Positions 2,770 through 57,588 are shown, numbered from the stretch's first letter. The stretch: 64,000 nt of DNA from a virus (IMGVR_UViG_3300024284_000007:23380-87379), one strand, 5' to 3'. Numbers and translations are program-made. Notes: generated by a model from the sequence alone, not told the origin.

Positions 2770-3201
2770 GTGGGGAAACCGTATGATCCTGAATATTACC
2801 GAAAGTGGCAAGAGGAACGCCGCATTAAGTTCCTGGCGATAGCTAAAGAACGCCTTGGAGGATGCTGTGTTCGTTGTGGTACTACCGAAAATCTTCAGTT
2901 CGATCATATTATTCCAGGTTCCAGGATTCGTGCGATATCATCAGCAACTAATTGGTCGCTAGCTCGCTTTCTTGCCGAAGTGGACAAATGTCAGCTTCTT
3001 TGCGATGCGCATCATCGTGAAAAATCAAAGGAATGCGGAGAGCAAGGCGGAGGCTGGAATCGTATCGATAACCCAGAACACGGAACAGAGATTTGCTATA
3101 CACGTGGGTGTCGTTGCGAACCATGTCGTCAAGCCCGGCACGACGTGCGGGTAAGACGAGGTGAACTCAATGGCACGCGAGGACATTACAAAAAATCTTG
3201 A
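2770..3201 (+). CDS. HNH endonuclease 1
   Basis: CVRCGTTENLQFDHIIPG...CQLLCDAHHREK; lower GC; starts 1 nt after tRNA-Met. Confidence 0.9.
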   Translation: MGKPYDPEYYRKWQEERRIKFLAIAKERLGGCCVRCGTTENLQFDHIIPGSRIRAISSATNWSLARFLAEVDKCQLLCDAHHREKSKECGEQGGGWNRIDNPEHGTEICYTRGCRCEPCRQARHDVRVRRGELNGTRGHYKKS

Positions 3202-3227
3202 CATCTCCTCTTCGGAGGAGGTAAGGT
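3198..3227 (+). promoter_or_regulatory. SigA-type promoter
   Basis: TTGACA-18 nt-TAAGGT just upstream of tRNA-fMet; the spacer is a CTCCTC-TTCG-GAGGAG hairpin. Confidence 0.6.
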
Positions 3228-3238
3228 AGATCTACCGA

Positions 3239-3312
3239 CGCGGAGTAGAGCAGCTTGGCAGCTCGGTGGGCTCATAACCCTCAGGTCGCGGGTTCGAATC
3301 CCGTCTCCGCTA
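3239..3312 (+). tRNA. Initiator tRNA-fMet(CAT)
   Basis: Unpaired C1:U72, GGG/CCC at the anticodon stem end, CTCATAA loop. Confidence 0.9.
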
Positions 3313-4400: not shown

Positions 4401-4574
4401 ATGTCATTCGACGGGCAGGACTATCCCTGGCTCCACCTGTGGATGCTGTCAGCAGTGCCGCTGGTGACATTCGCGGCAGGGGCGCTGTCCTGTAAGATCC
4501 TGGGGAAGTGGACCTGGCTGCTCATCGGGCTGGGAGTCCTGCTGCTGGTCATCCTGCGGGCAGCTGGAGGGTAG
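4401..4574 (+). CDS. Small 2-TM membrane protein
   Basis: MSFDGQDYPWLHLWMLSAVPLV...; abuts the previous ORF. Confidence 0.6.
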   Translation: MSFDGQDYPWLHLWMLSAVPLVTFAAGALSCKILGKWTWLLIGLGVLLLVILRAAGG

Positions 4575-4688
4575 ATGGCGATAAACAGGAAGTGCCTGGC
4601 ATGCAGGTGGAACAGCCGCCTGCTGCGCTGCAGCTGCACCTACCGGTGCTCTGCGCTATGGTGCAAGGGCAGGGGAGTGAAAATATAG

Positions 4689-4761
4689 GGACGCTTAGCT
4701 CAGCGGTATGAGCGCTGCCCTGACACGGCAGAGGGCGGCGGTTCGATCCCGTCAGCGTTCA
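4689..4761 (+). tRNA. tRNA-Val(GAC)
   Basis: GGACGCT/AGCGTTC, CTGCC-CTGACAC-GGCAG, GTTCGATCC. Confidence 0.9.
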
Positions 4762-4778
4762 CTCGGCTGGAAGAAAAG

Positions 4779-4868
4779 GCTGCTAGCGAGCCGGATCTTC
4801 CCGCGCCGGGGATAGAGACCCGGCTCCGGCGGCAGACGTGCCGTGCGTTCCATGAGCACATGGGCAGC
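4779..4868 (+). ncRNA. Candidate four-way-junction RNA of unknown family
   Basis: GCTGC/GCAGC closes three hairpins: GAGCCGG/CCGGCTC, CGGCA/TGCCG, CCATG/CATGG. Confidence 0.4.
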
Positions 4869-4876
4869 TGGACCAA

Positions 4877-4954
4877 GGGGATGAATGGTTCGACCGGGCT
4901 GCAAGACCGCATGCGGAACAGCCCGGGACCAGGGCTCGGTACCCTGCATCTCCA
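4877..4954 (+). ncRNA. Minimal tmRNA-like RNA (tRNA-like domain only, no mRNA-like domain)
   Basis: GGGGATG/CATCTCC acceptor with G3.U70 and A73; tmRNA D-loop analogue AATGGTTCGAC; P2a CGGGCTG/CAGCCCG; GGAC linker; T arm; only 17 nt between the P2a strands. Confidence 0.75.
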
Positions 4955-5363: not shown

Positions 5364-5517
5364 GGGAATGAGAGAGGGTACGGCAGGGCTACTCAGGGAG
5401 TCCGGGTGCGTGCCATCCAGAGGAGTCCGAAGACGGCAGGACGGTTCCTGAGTCTGTCCTGCTTGCTTGACGGATCGCTCTCACCGAGCCCAGGGTCGTG
5501 GGCAGCTCTCATTCTCC
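5364..5517 (+). ncRNA. Candidate ~154-nt structured RNA between tRNA-Val and tRNA-His
   Basis: Terminal stem GGGAATGAGAG/CTCTCATTCTC, nested stems GGCAGGGC/GTCCTGCT, ACTCAGGGA/TTCCTGAGT, GTCC/GGAC, two apical hairpins. Confidence 0.55.
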
Positions 5518-54911: not shown

Positions 54912-56543
54912 CTAGATGTCCCCGCGCGAGAAGTCTGCCAGCATCGCGGGGACGTTGCTGTCAAAACCTGCAACATCCAGGCTTCCGGGGTCTGCCGGGT
55001 CCGCGATGCTGCACTGGGTTGCGGTCATGCCAACAACCGCGAGGCGGGCATTGATTCCCGTCGCGTTGCGGTACTGCACCAGAGCCTGGTGCGGGTGGAT
55101 CCGTCCCGCCCAGGTCTCGTTGTCCGTGTAGACCTGGAAGGTATCCACCTCGATCTTGTTCTTCTGCGCCCAGATCATCGGCAGCGAGCAGTCCGTGCCG
55201 CCGAACGGGAGATTCGCGATTACCCGCACGGCATCATCCAGGCGCTGTTTCGGGGAGATCTTCAGTCCCGAGATGCCTTCACCCCTGCCGTTGCCGCTGG
55301 TGAAGCCGGTGATGAGGTAGTTCTCCTCCGTCGCGGCGGTGACCAGGGACAGGGCGGCGGAGATGTCTCTGGGGGACAGTCCCGGAGTTCCGGTGTTCCC
55401 CCACGTCATGGATCCGCTGACGTCGAGAGCCAGCATGGTCCGCTTCCCGCTTGGCGTGACTGCCTTGAACGCCAGGTAGAAGGCGTCATTGAAGGCATCG
55501 ATGACCTGCGGGACCGGGGTCCAGGTGCTGCCACCGTACATGGACTGACCGGCAGCGTAGGTCTTCATCGCGATCAGCAGGCTCACCGGATGGACCCGCG
55601 CACGGATCAGCTTGTCCTGGTCGCGGAGCTGGTCCGTGACCTTCTTCAGGTGCTCCGACATGGGAGCCAGGACCCCGAGCCGGGTCAATGTCGGGAGCTG
55701 GCGGATCAGGGCAGTCATGGGCATCCCCTGGTCAATCAGCGCACGCCAGAAGTCCGCGTGGGTGCGCGCCTCGTCGGGGAACGCCTCCCAGGGAAGTCCC
55801 GGGATGTTCCTGACCAGGTTGACCCATGCCTTCGCGCGGGCGGTTCCCGTGGCGCGTTTCTCGATCTCCCGTGCCTGCTGGTAACCCCTGATCACCTGGG
55901 GCAGGGCAATATCCGTCTCCCGCCCGCAGGCGAAGTCGAAAAGAGCCTTCAGCTGCGGGTCGGAGGTCTTCGGGTGAGCGAGGCGCAGCAGGTCCTTGTG
56001 CGTCCAGCCGTTGCGCTGGCGGTACTTGATCAGCTGGCGCGCCAGCTCCTCCGGGTCCTTATCCAGGTACCAGCCGCTGACCGCCCTGCGCGAACCCCGG
56101 GTCCATCCGCCGAACAGCTCGCGGTATTCCGCCCAGGCGTACAGGTGGGTGCCGATACGAGCCACCTCCGGCAGGATCTCCAGGGCGCGCTTGCGACCGT
56201 CATCATCTCCGAGAACACTGGCGGCGGCAACGGCGTAGAGAGCCGGGTCATTTCGCGGAGCCCTGCCTGCCACGGAGATATCCCGGGCGGCCCCGGCGAG
56301 GGCAGTGGCGTTCTCCCGGGCAACCCTCTTCACGACGTCGGTTGCATCCTTGGTCAGCTTCTTCTCGCCGACGTAGAAGGTGCCCCCGGTGGTGCCGAGA
56401 GTGAGGAAGCGGTAGATCTGCGGGAAGTTCCCGAGCTGGAAAGTCCAGCCCCCAGCGTTGTTTTTCACCTGCCGGGGATCCGCCTGCTCTGACTGGGCAG
56501 TCTTCTTGGTGCCCGTGGAGAGCAGCGGGTCATTGCGTGGCAT
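54912..56543 (-). CDS. rsr: Ro60/Rsr orthologue (TROVE plus vWA)
   Basis: NNAGG, RFLTLGT..GTFY, KYRQRNGWTHKDLLRLAHP, PMTALIRQL, LALDVSGSM, YTDNETW. Confidence 0.95.
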   Translation of the reverse strand: MPRNDPLLSTGTKKTAQSEQADPRQVKNNAGGWTFQLGNFPQIYRFLTLGTTGGTFYVGEKKLTKDATDVVKRVARENATALAGAARDISVAGRAPRNDPALYAVAAASVLGDDDGRKRALEILPEVARIGTHLYAWAEYRELFGGWTRGSRRAVSGWYLDKDPEELARQLIKYRQRNGWTHKDLLRLAHPKTSDPQLKALFDFACGRETDIALPQVIRGYQQAREIEKRATGTARAKAWVNLVRNIPGLPWEAFPDEARTHADFWRALIDQGMPMTALIRQLPTLTRLGVLAPMSEHLKKVTDQLRDQDKLIRARVHPVSLLIAMKTYAAGQSMYGGSTWTPVPQVIDAFNDAFYLAFKAVTPSGKRTMLALDVSGSMTWGNTGTPGLSPRDISAALSLVTAATEENYLITGFTSGNGRGEGISGLKISPKQRLDDAVRVIANLPFGGTDCSLPMIWAQKNKIEVDTFQVYTDNETWAGRIHPHQALVQYRNATGINARLAVVGMTATQCSIADPADPGSLDVAGFDSNVPAMLADFSRGDI

Positions 56544-56571
56544 TACCTTCCCCTTTCCCTGGATTCATGCG

Positions 56572-56603
56572 AAAAGCCCCGCAGTGCGGAACTGCAGGGC
56601 TTT
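56572..56603 (-). terminator. Intrinsic terminator between the Y-RNA array and rsr
   Basis: AAAGCCCTGCAGT-TCCGC-ACTGCGGGGCTTTT. Confidence 0.6.
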
Positions 56604-56612
56604 GAGAAAGGA

Positions 56613-56749
56613 CCGCGCGGATGTGTTCATGGACACCGGGTTTAGTGCTCTGCCATTAAGCTACAGCCTCCACGAAGGGAGGCTGGCGGGAATCGAACCC
56701 GCACCCTCTTCTCCCAGAAAGATAACCGACATCCGTCCGACCCGCGCGG
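56613..56749 (-). ncRNA. Y RNA-like unit 1 (YrlA type with tRNA-like module)
   Basis: Closing stem GCGGGTCGG/CACATCCGC; T arm GCGGG-TTCGATT-CCCGC, looped acceptor CAGCCTCC/GGAGGCTG, D arm TAGCTTAATGGCAGAGC. Confidence 0.85.
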
Positions 56750-56764
56750 ATTCCTCCTGATGGC

Positions 56765-56833
56765 CCTGCAGATGTGTGAATGGGAACCGGGTTGCATCTG
56801 TATGGTGATAACCGATCCCCTCCGACCCGCAGG
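56765..56833 (-). ncRNA. Y RNA-like unit 2 (minimal, 69 nt)
   Basis: Same two closing stems and TTATC motif around a ~16-nt insert. Confidence 0.75.
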
Positions 56834-56840
56834 AGCTTGT

Positions 56841-56978
56841 GATGGCAGATATGTTCTGTGAGAACCGATGTTTAGGCACTCTGCCAATTGAGTTACCCCG
56901 GTTTTACCCGGAGACGGGACTCGAACCCGCAACTTCCCGCTTAAAAGGCGATAACCGATCCTCGTCCGACCCGCCATC
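56841..56978 (-). ncRNA. Y RNA-like unit 3 (YrlA type with an extra Lys-like anticodon hairpin)
   Basis: TCGC-CTTTTAA-GCGG, T arm TTCGAGT, looped acceptor, D arm ACTCAATTGGCAGAGT. Confidence 0.85.
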
Positions 56979-56996
56979 AGGTCTATGTAATTGTGC

Positions 56997-57086
56997 CCAG
57001 CGGATGTGGCAAGTAAAGCACCGTTTTCTGAATCCCAAGGCGAACCCTGGCTGGGACTGATAACCGATGCCCGTCCGACCCGCTGG
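56997..57086 (-). ncRNA. Y RNA-like unit 4 (UUCG hairpin cargo)
   Basis: Conserved closing stems; CCAGGG-TTCG-CCTTGG insert. Confidence 0.75.
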
Positions 57087-57099
57087 TTATGTAGTTCGG

Positions 57100-57211
57100 C
57101 TGACGGATGTGTTGCTGAGACCGGGTGCCTGAGCCATCACAGGCTTTGCCAGGTTTTACCCCGGCAGGTGGATTCGAACCATCGATAACCGATCTTCATC
57201 CGACCCGTCAG
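57100..57211 (-). ncRNA. Y RNA-like unit 5 (YrlA type)
   Basis: T loop TTCGAAT, acceptor hairpin TGCCGGG/CCTGGCA, D-like arm GCCT/AGGC. Confidence 0.8.
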
Positions 57212-57227
57212 TATATGTACTTGTCAG

Positions 57228-57326
57228 CGCGCGGATGTGTTAATGAGAACCGGAACCGGTCTCCCGGGGTAACGCTCACCGAGGTTATCAGTGTGTCAGA
57301 TAACCGATCCTCGTCCGACCCGCACG
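57228..57326 (-). ncRNA. Y RNA-like unit 6 (first transcribed; non-tRNA cargo)
   Basis: Conserved closing stems GAGGATCGG/CCGGTTCTC and the TTATC motif. Confidence 0.75.
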
Positions 57327-57332
57327 AGAAGA

Positions 57333-57361
57333 ACACTACTCTCCTGCGGGAAGGCTGTCAA
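57333..57361 (-). promoter_or_regulatory. SigA-type promoter of the Y-RNA array
   Basis: TTGACA-17 nt-TAGTGT, 6-7 nt before unit 6. Confidence 0.7.
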
Positions 57362-57390
57362 ACGGGTAACCTGGTCCTGCGGGCGGCGTT

Positions 57391-57588
57391 ATGCTCCTGC
57401 GGAGAGAGAAGGGAAGAGGGATGCACCGAGGCGGGACGAACGGGAAGAGGAAGTGCTTCAACGGCTGCGGGAGGCGGGTGCGGTTCCGTCTTATCTGCGG
57501 ACCGTGCAGGCGTAAGGCCAGGAAGATCGACCGGGACATGCGCAGGAACCGGCGCTCGAAGAACGCGAAGCTCCCCGGGAAGAGGTAG
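57391..57588 (+). CDS. Arg/Cys-rich small protein
   Basis: CFNGC...CGPC. Confidence 0.45.
   Translation: MLLRREKGRGMHRGGTNGKRKCFNGCGRRVRFRLICGPCRRKARKIDRDMRRNRRSKNAKLPGKR

What the first reader, a model, noticed from the sequence alone, without database searches (positions are those of the whole stretch)
56613..57326. Six tandem modular Y-RNA-like genes directly upstream of phage Ro60
Seen: six minus-strand units share an outer stem (GCGGGTCGG...CACATCCGC, bulged C), an inner stem (RGGATCGG/CCGGTTCY) and an unpaired TTATC. The stems covary between copies, e.g. CCAGCGG/CCGCTGG, CTGACGG/CCGTCAG, GATGGC/GCCATC, GGGCATCG/CGGTGCTT. The enclosed cargo differs completely: units 1, 3 and 5 carry the permuted T arm - looped acceptor - D arm module, while units 2, 4 and 6 carry unrelated short hairpins, so the two types alternate. 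Established: Ro60 binds a bulged-helix Y-RNA stem, bacterial YrlA RNAs next to rsr have this permuted tRNA-like module, and rsr loci usually carry only one or a few Y RNAs. Inference: this is a cassette library of interchangeable Y RNAs on one scaffold, which could tether different partners (e.g. PNPase, RtcB, tRNA-modifying enzymes) or act as decoys for anti-phage RNases.
Basis: partly seen in the sequence, partly recalled or inferred. Interest (0 to 1): 0.9.

Follow-up and report, generated by a model that had tools for sequence, protein, structure and literature searches.

The report
Six Y RNAs before phage Ro60
An uncultured soil phage carries six small structured RNA genes in a row in front of its Ro60 gene; all share the Ro60-binding handle of known bacterial Y RNAs, so this is a large example of a known system whose multi-RNA arrays have not been described in the papers I could search.

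Summary
Six minus-strand units (57326-56614) lie between a promoter-like site and a Ro60 gene (54912-56543; TROVE + Ro60 vWA). Each has a 9-bp outer stem, an internal loop with invariant CGGA, an 8-9-bp upper stem and GGUUAUC. The variable stem positions differ between copies in a compensatory way.

Covariance models support this. A model built only from relatives scores U6 at 103 bits, U4 at 100, U2 at 53 and U1 at 35. A short-unit model finds U1, U2, U3, U5 and U6, and nothing else comparable in the 64 kb.

U2, U4 and U6 are YrlA-type tRNA mimics. U1, U3 and U5 are short and YrlB-like. The handle motifs also occur in the published Ro60-bound M. smegmatis YrlA and YrlB.

The array is not unique. 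Related loci carry 0-7 such units upstream of Ro60: 48 of 105 viral or metagenomic loci have two or more, and bacterial genomes have up to four. Strict alternation is not general. Earlier notes of this scan describe similar phage Ro60-linked RNA arrays on other DNA.

One feature seems undescribed. In about half of this clade's tRNA-like units, including U4, the so-called V hairpin has the geometry and loop signature of a real anticodon arm.

Ro60 binding, processing and function remain inferred.

The parts
57333..57361 (-). Promoter-like site TTGACA-17 nt-TAGTGT. It ends 6 nt before the first base of U1.
   Evidence: The pattern TTGACA N16-18 TANNNT has 3 matches in the window against 0.21 expected. 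The -10 hexamer matches TATAAT at only 3 of 6 positions, so the consensus scan did not list it. Function is inferred.
57228..57326 (-). U1, a short Y RNA unit of 99 nt with a 45-nt non-tRNA cargo. The cargo contains GAUAACC, which is complementary to the unit's own GGUUAUC.
   Evidence: R1 48.0 bits; R2 35.0 bits on the scaffold only; 9/9 outer and 8/8 upper pairs; fold.
57100..57211 (-). U2, a YrlA-type unit of 112 nt. The T arm follows UUAUC directly, then come a closed acceptor-like stem and a D-like arm. There is no V hairpin.
   Evidence: R2 52.8 bits, E 5e-10; R1 34.4 bits; Rfam YrlA 17 bits, below threshold. Cargo homologues occur in L090, L180 and L093.
56997..57086 (-). U3, a short Y RNA unit of 90 nt with a 34-nt hairpin cargo.
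   Evidence: R1 28.3 bits, E 9e-4; 9/9 outer and 7/8 upper pairs.
56842..56977 (-). U4, a YrlA-type unit of 136 nt. In order it has an anticodon-arm-like hairpin (loop CUUUUAA), a 5-nt variable loop, a T arm, a closed 6-bp acceptor stem and a D arm.
   Evidence: R2 99.6 bits, E 1.7e-20; Rfam YrlA 34.1 bits against a gathering score of 69. ARAGORN calls part of it tRNA-Lys(ttt), but Rfam tRNA gives only 16.2 bits.
56765..56833 (-). U5, the minimal Y RNA unit of 69 nt with a 16-nt loop cargo.
   Evidence: R1 65.9 bits; this unit was in R1's training set. 9/9 outer and 8/8 upper pairs.
56614..56748 (-). U6, a YrlA-type unit of 135 nt. It has a V hairpin that is not anticodon-like, a T arm, an 8-bp closed acceptor stem and a D arm.
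   Evidence: R2 103.3 bits, E 2.5e-21; R1 47.5 bits; Rfam YrlA 32.3 bits over the full model length.
56572..56601 (-). An 11-bp G+C-rich hairpin followed by UUUU, lying between U6 and the Ro60 start codon. It could be an attenuating terminator or a processing or stability element.
   Evidence: Fold -31.5 kcal/mol, z -2.9. The terminator scan did not list it because the run has only 4 U. Most related loci have no such hairpin, and there the last unit lies 13-50 nt from the Ro60 start.
54912..56543 (-). Ro60 (Rsr) gene, 543 aa.
   Evidence: Pfam vWA_Ro60 3.8e-58 and TROVE 4.9e-34; PHROG 850 RNA-binding protein 1.6e-87; D. radiodurans Rsr 2nvo 2e-114 and Xenopus Ro60 1yvp 1e-92.

Best explanation
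The region is a transcription unit of six Y RNA genes, the RNA partners of the phage's own Ro60 protein.

A host-type promoter (TTGACA-17-TAGTGT) most likely starts a precursor of about 760 nt at the first base of U1. Each unit closes on itself through a 9-bp outer stem. Inside that stem come an asymmetric internal loop with invariant 5' CGGA, an 8-9-bp upper stem and GGUUAUC. This handle is the Ro60-binding module.

The precursor is probably cut in the 8-19-nt spacers into six RNAs of 69-136 nt. Each RNA binds one Ro60 ring through the handle and presents a different distal module:
- U2, U4 and U6 present a tRNA look-alike: T arm, closed acceptor stem and D arm. U4 also has an anticodon-arm look-alike.
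- U1, U3 and U5 present short, fast-evolving hairpins.

By analogy with Deinococcus Yrn1 and Thermus phage Yrl1 and Yrl2, the distal modules would tether or gate Ro60 towards different host factors. These would be PNPase and tRNA-binding enzymes.

Shown here: the anatomy, the covariation, homology to experimentally Ro60-bound M. smegmatis YrlA and YrlB motifs, and the strand-specific linkage to Ro60 in hundreds of loci.

Inferred: transcription start and end, processing, Ro60 binding and every downstream function.
For: The downstream gene is Ro60.

All six units share the handle with fully paired, copy-specific stems.

Model R2 was built from 44 relatives and no window sequence. It scores U6, U4, U2 and U1 at 103.3, 99.6, 52.8 and 35.0 bits. 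R1 scores U1, U6, U2 and U3, none of which were in its training set, at 48, 47.5, 34.4 and 28.3 bits. Nothing else in the window or the 87-kb genome compares.

Covariation is strong. 14 of 18 handle pairs show compensatory changes. 29 of 35 pairs do so in the full YrlA-type structure. That includes all 7 acceptor-stem pairs, which played no part in picking the sequences. 94.8% of cells pair, against 33-46% when the partners are slid.

Linkage to Ro60 is strand-specific. My scanner found 230 units on the Ro60 strand and 0 on the other strand in 160 loci, almost all within 2.5 kb upstream of Ro60.

Rfam YrlA gives sub-threshold but correctly registered alignments of the T arm, acceptor stem and D arm.

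Chen et al. 2014 (PMC4201824) showed that M. smegmatis YrlA and YrlB lie upstream of rsr, bind Rsr and come from one precursor. Their probe sequences are complementary to UUACCACUUCUAAUGG... and UAUCUGG...GGUUCGAC, the motifs seen here.

Thermus phage phiLo Ro60 binds two upstream Y-like RNAs and, together with them, host PNPase (PMC12135203).
Against: No experiment bears on this phage. The RNAs, their ends and their binding to Ro60 are all unobserved.

No unit reaches the Rfam YrlA gathering score: 34.1, 32.3 and 17.0 bits against 69. The actinobacterial and mycobacteriophage homologues I tested fail it too.

The 5' motif is GUCGGACG, one base off the published GNCGAAN0-1G.

The units in A3 and A5 were picked by a scanner that requires the two handle stems to pair. 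The paired percentages for those two stems are therefore inflated.

The -10 hexamer is weak.

A strong hairpin with UUUU lies between the array and Ro60, so coupling of their expression is unclear.

No partner enzyme gene lies nearby, and the neighbouring ORFs have no family match.
Confidence: 0.85

Rival explanations
1. The array is mainly a cis-acting structured leader of the Ro60 mRNA. Ro60 would bind the repeated handles on its own transcript and regulate its own synthesis or transcript stability. It would not be a set of six free trans-acting RNAs.
For: In most related loci the last unit lies only 13-50 nt before the Ro60 start, with no terminator. In M. smegmatis the Y RNAs and rsr lie on one precursor (PMC4201824). 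In the window there is no room for a separate Ro60 promoter between the hairpin and the ribosome-binding site.
Against: M. smegmatis YrlA and YrlB accumulate as discrete Rsr-bound RNAs. The diverse, conserved tRNA-like cargo has no obvious role in a leader. In this window a hairpin with UUUU separates the array from the gene. Gordonia phage Sixama has units inside a tRNA array downstream of Ro60. The two readings are not mutually exclusive.
Confidence: 0.1
2. The units are decayed or rearranged tRNA genes, remnants of a phage tRNA array, with no specific relation to Ro60.
For: ARAGORN calls a tRNA-Lys inside U4. R2 gives partial hits on real tRNAs and a full-length hit across a tRNA-Ile dimer. 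In relatives the arrays often directly follow tRNA arrays.
Against: Three units have no tRNA-like part at all, yet carry the same handle. The handle covaries and is found only on the Ro60 strand next to Ro60. Rfam tRNA gives only 16.2 bits for U4.
Confidence: 0.03
3. The repeats act at the DNA level, as protein-binding iterons, recombination sites or a small mobile repeat. The apparent RNA structure would be incidental.
For: There are six direct repeats of 23-32 nt at spacings of about 85-230 nt.
Against: Compensatory changes keep two stems paired in every copy and across over 60 homologues, while the sequence between them is free to vary. Orientation relative to Ro60 is strict. The tRNA-like modules carry T-loop and D-loop signatures.
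Confidence: 0.02

Closest known systems
Mycobacterium smegmatis YrlA and YrlB upstream of rsr (Chen et al. 2014, PMC4201824)
   Same: Both are actinobacterial-type loci with Y RNAs directly 5' of Ro60 on the same strand. Both combine a tRNA-like YrlA with a shorter second RNA. Both carry the GGUUA(U/C)C motif and a hairpin before the T arm; this is read from the published probe sequences. In M. smegmatis the RNAs come from one precursor and bind Rsr.
   Different: M. smegmatis has two RNAs and this window has six. Here a hairpin with UUUU separates the array from Ro60. The locus is in a phage. Nothing here has been tested experimentally.
Salmonella Typhimurium YrlA/YrlB (rsr-yrlBA-rtcBA operon; Rfam RF02553; structure in Wang et al. 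2018, bioRxiv 10.1101/312249)
   Same: The tRNA-like module has the same order: T arm, closed acceptor stem, D arm. A long and a short Y RNA are paired in both.
   Different: In Salmonella the RNAs lie 3' of rsr, next to RtcB and RtcA. No RtcB was found in this phage record. The Rfam model scores the window units at only 17-34 bits. Salmonella YrlA is described as lacking an anticodon loop, whereas U4 has an anticodon-arm-like hairpin.
Thermus phage phiLo Ro60 with Yrl1 and Yrl2 (PMC12135203)
   Same: It is a phage-encoded Ro60 with Y-like RNAs in the upstream non-coding region. Binding to the phage Ro60, and ternary complexes with host PNPase, were shown.
   Different: It has two RNAs, identified through a CGAA motif. 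No tRNA-like modules are reported in the passages I read. The host lineage is unrelated.
Deinococcus radiodurans Yrn1/Yrn2 with Rsr and PNPase
   Same: Several Y RNAs are encoded upstream of rsr. The RNAs are modular, with a Ro-binding stem and an effector-binding end.
   Different: Yrn1 keeps both strands of the metazoan-type helix, and its T and D elements are in a different order.
Circularly permuted tRNA genes of some algae and archaea (as cited in Wang et al. 2018)
   Same: The acceptor end is a closed loop, and the RNA's own 5' and 3' ends pair elsewhere in the cloverleaf.
   Different: Those RNAs are precursors of working tRNAs. Here the ends are extended into a Ro60-binding stem, and no maturation into a tRNA is known.

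Membership tests
Bacterial/phage Y RNA (Ro60/Rsr partner RNAs) | Encoded within about 4 kb of a Ro60 ortholog, on the same strand | tested here: met
   The array at 56614-57326 (-) ends 70 nt upstream of the Ro60 gene at 54912-56543 (-).
Bacterial/phage Y RNA (Ro60/Rsr partner RNAs) | The 5' and 3' ends pair into a long stem that carries, on its 5' strand, the motif GNCGAAN0-1G, which resembles GGUCCGA of animal Y RNAs | tested here: inconclusive
   The stem is present in all six units. The motif reads GUCGGA(N)G, one substitution (A to G) from the published motif. Many homologous units read GCCGAAG at the same columns.
Bacterial/phage Y RNA (Ro60/Rsr partner RNAs) | Physically bound and stabilised by Ro60 | not testable with these tools
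   This needs pull-down or gel-shift experiments.
YrlA (Rfam RF02553) | Reaches the Rfam gathering score of 69 bits | tested here: not met
   U4 scores 34.1, U6 32.3 and U2 17.0 bits. None of the homologues tested reaches it either, including units in the mycobacteriophage-derived loci L140 and L113 and in Nocardia and Mycolicibacterium loci. The model therefore seems not to cover this branch.
YrlA (Rfam RF02553) | tRNA-like module in the order T arm, closed acceptor-like stem, D arm, enclosed by the Ro-binding stem | tested here: met
   The Rfam alignments place the T arm, acceptor stem and D arm of U4, U6 and U2 in register. The clade model R2 scores them at 99.6, 103.3 and 52.8 bits. The T, acceptor and D helices covary in 44 homologues.
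YrlA (Rfam RF02553) | Conserved T-loop (UUCGA), GG in the D loop and UA between the acceptor stem and the D arm | tested here: met
   U6 and U4 both show GGGUUCGAnUCCC. The linker and D arm read GUAGCUUAAUGGCAGAGC in U6 and GUAACUCAAUUGGCAGAGU in U4. U2 keeps the T loop but has a degenerate D arm.
YrlA (Rfam RF02553) | Substrate of tRNA enzymes (TruB, DusA; RNase P and CCA addition in M. smegmatis) | not testable with these tools
   Known only for Salmonella and M. smegmatis (PMC4201824).
YrlB-type short Y RNA | Ro-binding stem with only a small distal hairpin or loop, encoded beside a YrlA | tested here: met
   U1, U3 and U5 carry the full handle with cargoes of 45, 34 and 16 nt. No sequence homology is expected, because YrlB has no conserved sequence outside Salmonella.
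Animal Y RNA (Rfam RF00019) | Match to the Y_RNA covariance model | tested here: not met
   No Y_RNA match at E up to 10 in 56400-57500.
Canonical tRNA gene | Rfam tRNA gathering score of 29 bits, with the arms in normal order | tested here: not met
   U4 scores 16.2 bits. The ARAGORN tRNA-Lys call uses the handle as a false D arm and acceptor strand.

The most novel reading that the evidence does not exclude
In this actinobacterial and actinophage branch, many YrlA-type Y RNAs would be complete circularly permuted tRNAs. They have an anticodon arm, a variable loop, a T arm, a closed acceptor stem and a D arm, opened between positions 26 and 27. The Ro60-binding stem is attached at that opening.

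The evidence comes from the hairpin that the literature calls the V arm:
- It sits at exactly the tRNA distance from the T stem.
- Its 7-nt loop follows the anticodon-loop rule: Y32 84%, U33 76%, R37 94%, A38 71%.
- G36 goes with G37 and U36 with A37.
- The middle triplet varies between units (UUU in U4; elsewhere GCU, UCU, GUU, CAU and others).

On this reading, a phage array such as this one is a panel of Ro60-bound tRNA look-alikes and other cargoes. The panel would present different anticodon arms to host enzymes that act on anticodon loops. Examples are modification enzymes, or the tRNA-cleaving toxins common in Actinobacteria, for which the RNAs could act as decoys, sensors or repair guides.
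Probability: 0.2. Interest if true: 0.8.

Novelty: new variant of a known kind. Interest (0 to 1): 0.5.

Why it matters
Published work on bacterial and phage Ro60 describes one or two Y RNAs per locus. What the tRNA-like end of YrlA binds is still an open question.

The survey here shows that arrays of three to seven Y RNAs on one conserved handle are common in Actinobacteria-type Ro60 loci, and largest in phages. None of these RNAs is annotated in the three GenBank phage records I inspected (Cashline, Tonenili, Sixama).

Such arrays offer a natural set of handle-plus-cargo variants for finding Ro60's partners. The anticodon-arm signature gives one concrete, testable lead about which enzymes those partners might be.

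For this single window the value is moderate. It is a clear, large example, not a new kind of system.

Tried and rejected
- **Rfam at gathering thresholds:** only the tRNAs were found, and no Y RNA family.
- **Megablast of the locus against GenBank phages:** no match. The closest phage Ro60 proteins are below 53% identity.
- **The look-up of encoding contigs:** The protein-based scans did not recover them either; the best loci reached 57%.
- **A single-protein scan of viral contigs:** one locus only.
- **The exact handle pattern in viral contigs:** 87 stretches, but by my own estimate (no tool result) that is about the number expected by chance for 15 fixed bases. I therefore used only those with a Ro60 gene nearby.
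- **R1 with filters off:** it truncated units longer than about 115 nt and missed U4. R2 solved this.
- **The first alignment of long units (A4):** it mixed subtypes and was not used for counting.
- **The consensus promoter and terminator scan:** no promoter found. The only minus-strand 'terminator' lies inside U1 and is part of its fold.
- **Alternation as a design rule:** rejected after comparison with other arrays.
- **Reviews by Sim et al. 2020 and Boccitto & Wolin 2019:** not held in the library. Larger arrays or the anticodon-like hairpin may be mentioned there.
- **Supplementary tables of Chen et al. 2014:** not held.

Full report
**What is there**

The window is part of an 87,379-base IMG/VR virus record estimated to be 71% complete. 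On the minus strand, 54912-56543 encodes a 543-aa Ro60. Support comes from four searches:
- Pfam vWA_Ro60 3.8e-58 and TROVE 4.9e-34.
- PHROG 850.
- D. radiodurans Rsr 2nvo at 2e-114 and Xenopus Ro60 1yvp at 1e-92.

Upstream on the same strand lie six units:

| Unit | Coordinates | Length | Type |
|---|---|---|---|
| U1 | 57326-57228 | 99 nt | short |
| U2 | 57211-57100 | 112 nt | tRNA-like |
| U3 | 57086-56997 | 90 nt | short |
| U4 | 56977-56842 | 136 nt | tRNA-like |
| U5 | 56833-56765 | 69 nt | short |
| U6 | 56748-56614 | 135 nt | tRNA-like |

The spacers between units are 8-19 nt.

**Anatomy of a unit**

Each unit has these parts, from the outside in:
1. A 9-bp outer stem, made of five copy-specific pairs plus GGGU/AUC(C/U).
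2. An asymmetric internal loop: 5' CGGA(N), and 8-11 nt on the 3' side ending in a conserved AC.
3. An 8-9-bp upper stem.
4. GGUUAUC.
5. A variable cargo of 16-81 nt.

All six units have 9 of 9 outer pairs and 7-8 of 8 upper pairs. The variable outer positions are different and complementary in every copy.

**Is it more than chance?**

I aligned U5 with 22 short units from Ro60 loci elsewhere (A3). RNAalifold returned exactly this two-stem structure, with compensatory changes at 14 of 18 pairs. Slid and shuffled controls were far lower.

There is a caveat. The sequences were collected with my own scanner, which demands that these two stems pair, so the paired percentage is partly circular.

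Two other results are independent of that bias:
- Model R1, built from A3, finds U1, U6, U2 and U3 at 48, 47.5, 34.4 and 28.3 bits. None of these was in its training set. The next hit in 64 kb scores 11.6 bits, and no further hit appears in the whole record.
- Model R2 was built from 44 long units of other loci only. It scores U6 at 103.3, U4 at 99.6, U2 at 52.8 and U1 at 35.0 bits.

In the alignment behind R2 (A5), the acceptor-like stem and the D arm were not used for selection. They covary strongly: all 7 acceptor pairs show compensatory changes. Over the whole structure 94.8% of cells pair, against 33-46% when the partners are slid.

**What the units are**

Rfam's YrlA model aligns U4, U6 and U2 with the T arm, closed acceptor stem and D arm in register. 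The scores are 34.1, 32.3 and 17.0 bits, below the gathering score of 69. Homologous units from mycobacteriophage-derived, Nocardia and Mycolicibacterium loci also fail that threshold. The shortfall therefore says more about the model's coverage than about these RNAs.

Chen et al. 2014 (PMC4201824) reported four relevant things:
- YrlA-like RNAs lie near Ro60 in 254 bacteria and 22 phages.
- In M. smegmatis, YrlA and YrlB lie upstream of rsr.
- Both RNAs are bound by Rsr.
- Both are processed from one precursor.

Their Northern probes are complementary to UUACCACUUCUAAUGGAAUGGUC (YrlA) and UAUCUGGCGACUUCAAGGUUCGACU (YrlB). These contain the UUA(U/C)C motif and the hairpin before the T arm seen in this clade.

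The 5' motif here, GUCGGA(N)G, is one base off their GNCGAAN0-1G. Many homologues read GCCGAAG at the same columns.

I conclude that U2, U4 and U6 are YrlA-type Y RNAs, and that U1, U3 and U5 are short, YrlB-like Y RNAs on the same handle.

**How common are arrays?**

I fetched Ro60 loci with a protein alignment: 80 viral, 80 metagenomic and 80 from bacterial genomes. I scanned them with a handle detector. At the threshold used it found 230 units on the Ro60 strand and none on the opposite strand in the first 160 loci.

Units upstream of Ro60, in loci with at least 1.5 kb of upstream sequence:

| Set | Loci | 0 | 1 | 2 | 3 | 4 | 5 | 6 |
|---|---|---|---|---|---|---|---|---|
| Viral and metagenomic | 105 | 32 | 25 | 20 | 15 | 7 | 3 | 3 |
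| Bacterial genomes | 73 | 12 | 28 | 18 | 13 | 2 | 0 | 0 |

Counts with the covariance models in the largest arrays gave seven units in L099. They gave six in each of L090, L097, L133 and L247.

Cultured phages have arrays too: Gordonia phage Cashline has 2 units and Mycobacterium phage Tonenili has 3. Gordonia phage Sixama has 2 upstream, plus 2 more inside its tRNA array. None of these is annotated.

Six is therefore at the high end of a continuum, not unique. The order of long and short units varies between arrays. The perfect alternation in this window is not a rule.

The long cargoes have recognisable orthologues in other loci. The three short cargoes have none.

The scan's earlier notes also describe many phage Ro60-linked RNA arrays on other DNA. 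I treat those as leads only.

**Expression signals**

TTGACA-17-TAGTGT (57361-57333) ends 6 nt before U1. The pattern has 3 matches in the window against 0.21 expected, and another match sits just before a tRNA gene. The -10 hexamer is weak.

After U6 comes an 11-bp G+C-rich hairpin followed by UUUU (56601-56572). It lies 28 nt before the Ro60 start codon. Most relatives lack such a hairpin, and there the last unit sits 13-50 nt from the Ro60 start. In this phage the array may therefore be partly uncoupled from Ro60 expression. This is inference.

**Mechanism**

By homology, each processed unit binds a Ro60 ring through the handle and presents its cargo. In Deinococcus the cargo end tethers PNPase. 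Thermus phage Ro60 with Yrl1 and Yrl2 also forms complexes with host PNPase (PMC12135203). The tRNA-like end of YrlA is recognised by tRNA enzymes (PMC4201824).

The phage record has no RtcB, CCA-adding enzyme or RNA ligase family match. The neighbouring ORFs have no family match. Any partners would therefore be host proteins.

**A feature that seems undescribed**

I examined 109 distinct tRNA-like units from 87 loci. The hairpin between UUAUC and the T arm is called the V (variable) arm by Chen et al. In these units it lies exactly where an anticodon arm would: a 5-nt stem strand plus a 4-5-nt variable loop before the T stem.

Its 7-nt loop reads as follows:

| Loop position | Base(s) | Frequency |
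|---|---|---|
| 32 | C or U | 84% |
| 33 | U | 76% |
| 34-36 | variable | - |
| 37 | purine | 94% |
| 38 | A | 71% |

Of the 109 units, 72 have three or more contiguous stem pairs, 55 match YU-NNN-RA and 52 have both. Shuffling gives 13.8, 1.9 and 0.2.

G36 is followed by G37 in 17 of 19 cases, and U36 by A37 in 29 of 30. From my own knowledge, real tRNAs show the same pairing.

Real tRNAs of the window align to exactly this part of R2, model positions 26-62. A tRNA-Ile dimer aligns over the full model length. That fits the published idea that YrlA arose from a dimeric tRNA.

U4 carries such an arm, with loop CUUUUAA. U6 has a different hairpin, and U2 has none. Wang et al. 2018 describe Salmonella YrlA as lacking an anticodon loop. 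I could not read the two main reviews, so this may have been noted there.

**Verdict**

It is a large member of a known system.

The existence of multi-unit arrays, and the anticodon-arm signature, are the parts not found in the literature I could search. Function remains inferred.

Noticed in passing
L089-L328 (109 units from 87 loci); window 56940-56960 (U4): The hairpin before the T arm of YrlA-type units has tRNA anticodon-arm geometry and loop signature (Y32, U33, R37, A38; G36 with G37, U36 with A37), with varying middle triplets. The literature calls it a variable arm.
   Followed up: partly
L089:226-553: A viral contig with a related Ro60 carries a full bacterial class A RNase P RNA (252.7 bits). 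It is followed on the same strand by about 20 tRNA genes, four Y RNA units and Ro60.
   Followed up: no
L335:5179-5308 and 5387-5517 (Gordonia phage Sixama): Two further Y RNA units lie between tRNA genes in the array downstream of Ro60. A tmRNA gene lies at 4504-4925. None of the Y units is annotated in the record.
   Followed up: partly
L334:2155-2295 (Mycobacterium phage Tonenili gp136): An annotated 46-aa 'hypothetical protein' overlaps Y RNA units at 2102-2176 and 2199-2345. It is probably a false gene call.
   Followed up: no
window 57212-57227, 57087-57099, 56978-56996: Three of the five spacers between units contain UACAUA (GUACAUAUA, CUACAUAA, UUACAUAG). This could be a shared processing site.
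   Followed up: no
window 3198-3227 (+): A second TTGACA-18-TAAGGT promoter-like site lies 12 nt before the tRNA-Met gene at 3239. The tRNA array and the Y RNA array may use the same kind of promoter.
   Followed up: no
L099:687-825: One unit of a seven-unit array encloses a tRNA in normal arm order (Rfam tRNA 32.8 bits at 726-797), not the permuted module.
   Followed up: no
L090:3617-3991, L093:3559-4000, L094, L171: In several close relatives a small ORF-sized insert of 375-730 nt, with similar starts (ATGA...TGCACTCC), lies between the last Y unit and Ro60. The window has no such insert.
   Followed up: no
window 57270-57305 (U1): U1's cargo contains GAUAACC, a perfect complement of its own GGUUAUC motif. 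The conserved motif could therefore be masked in this unit (fold).
   Followed up: no
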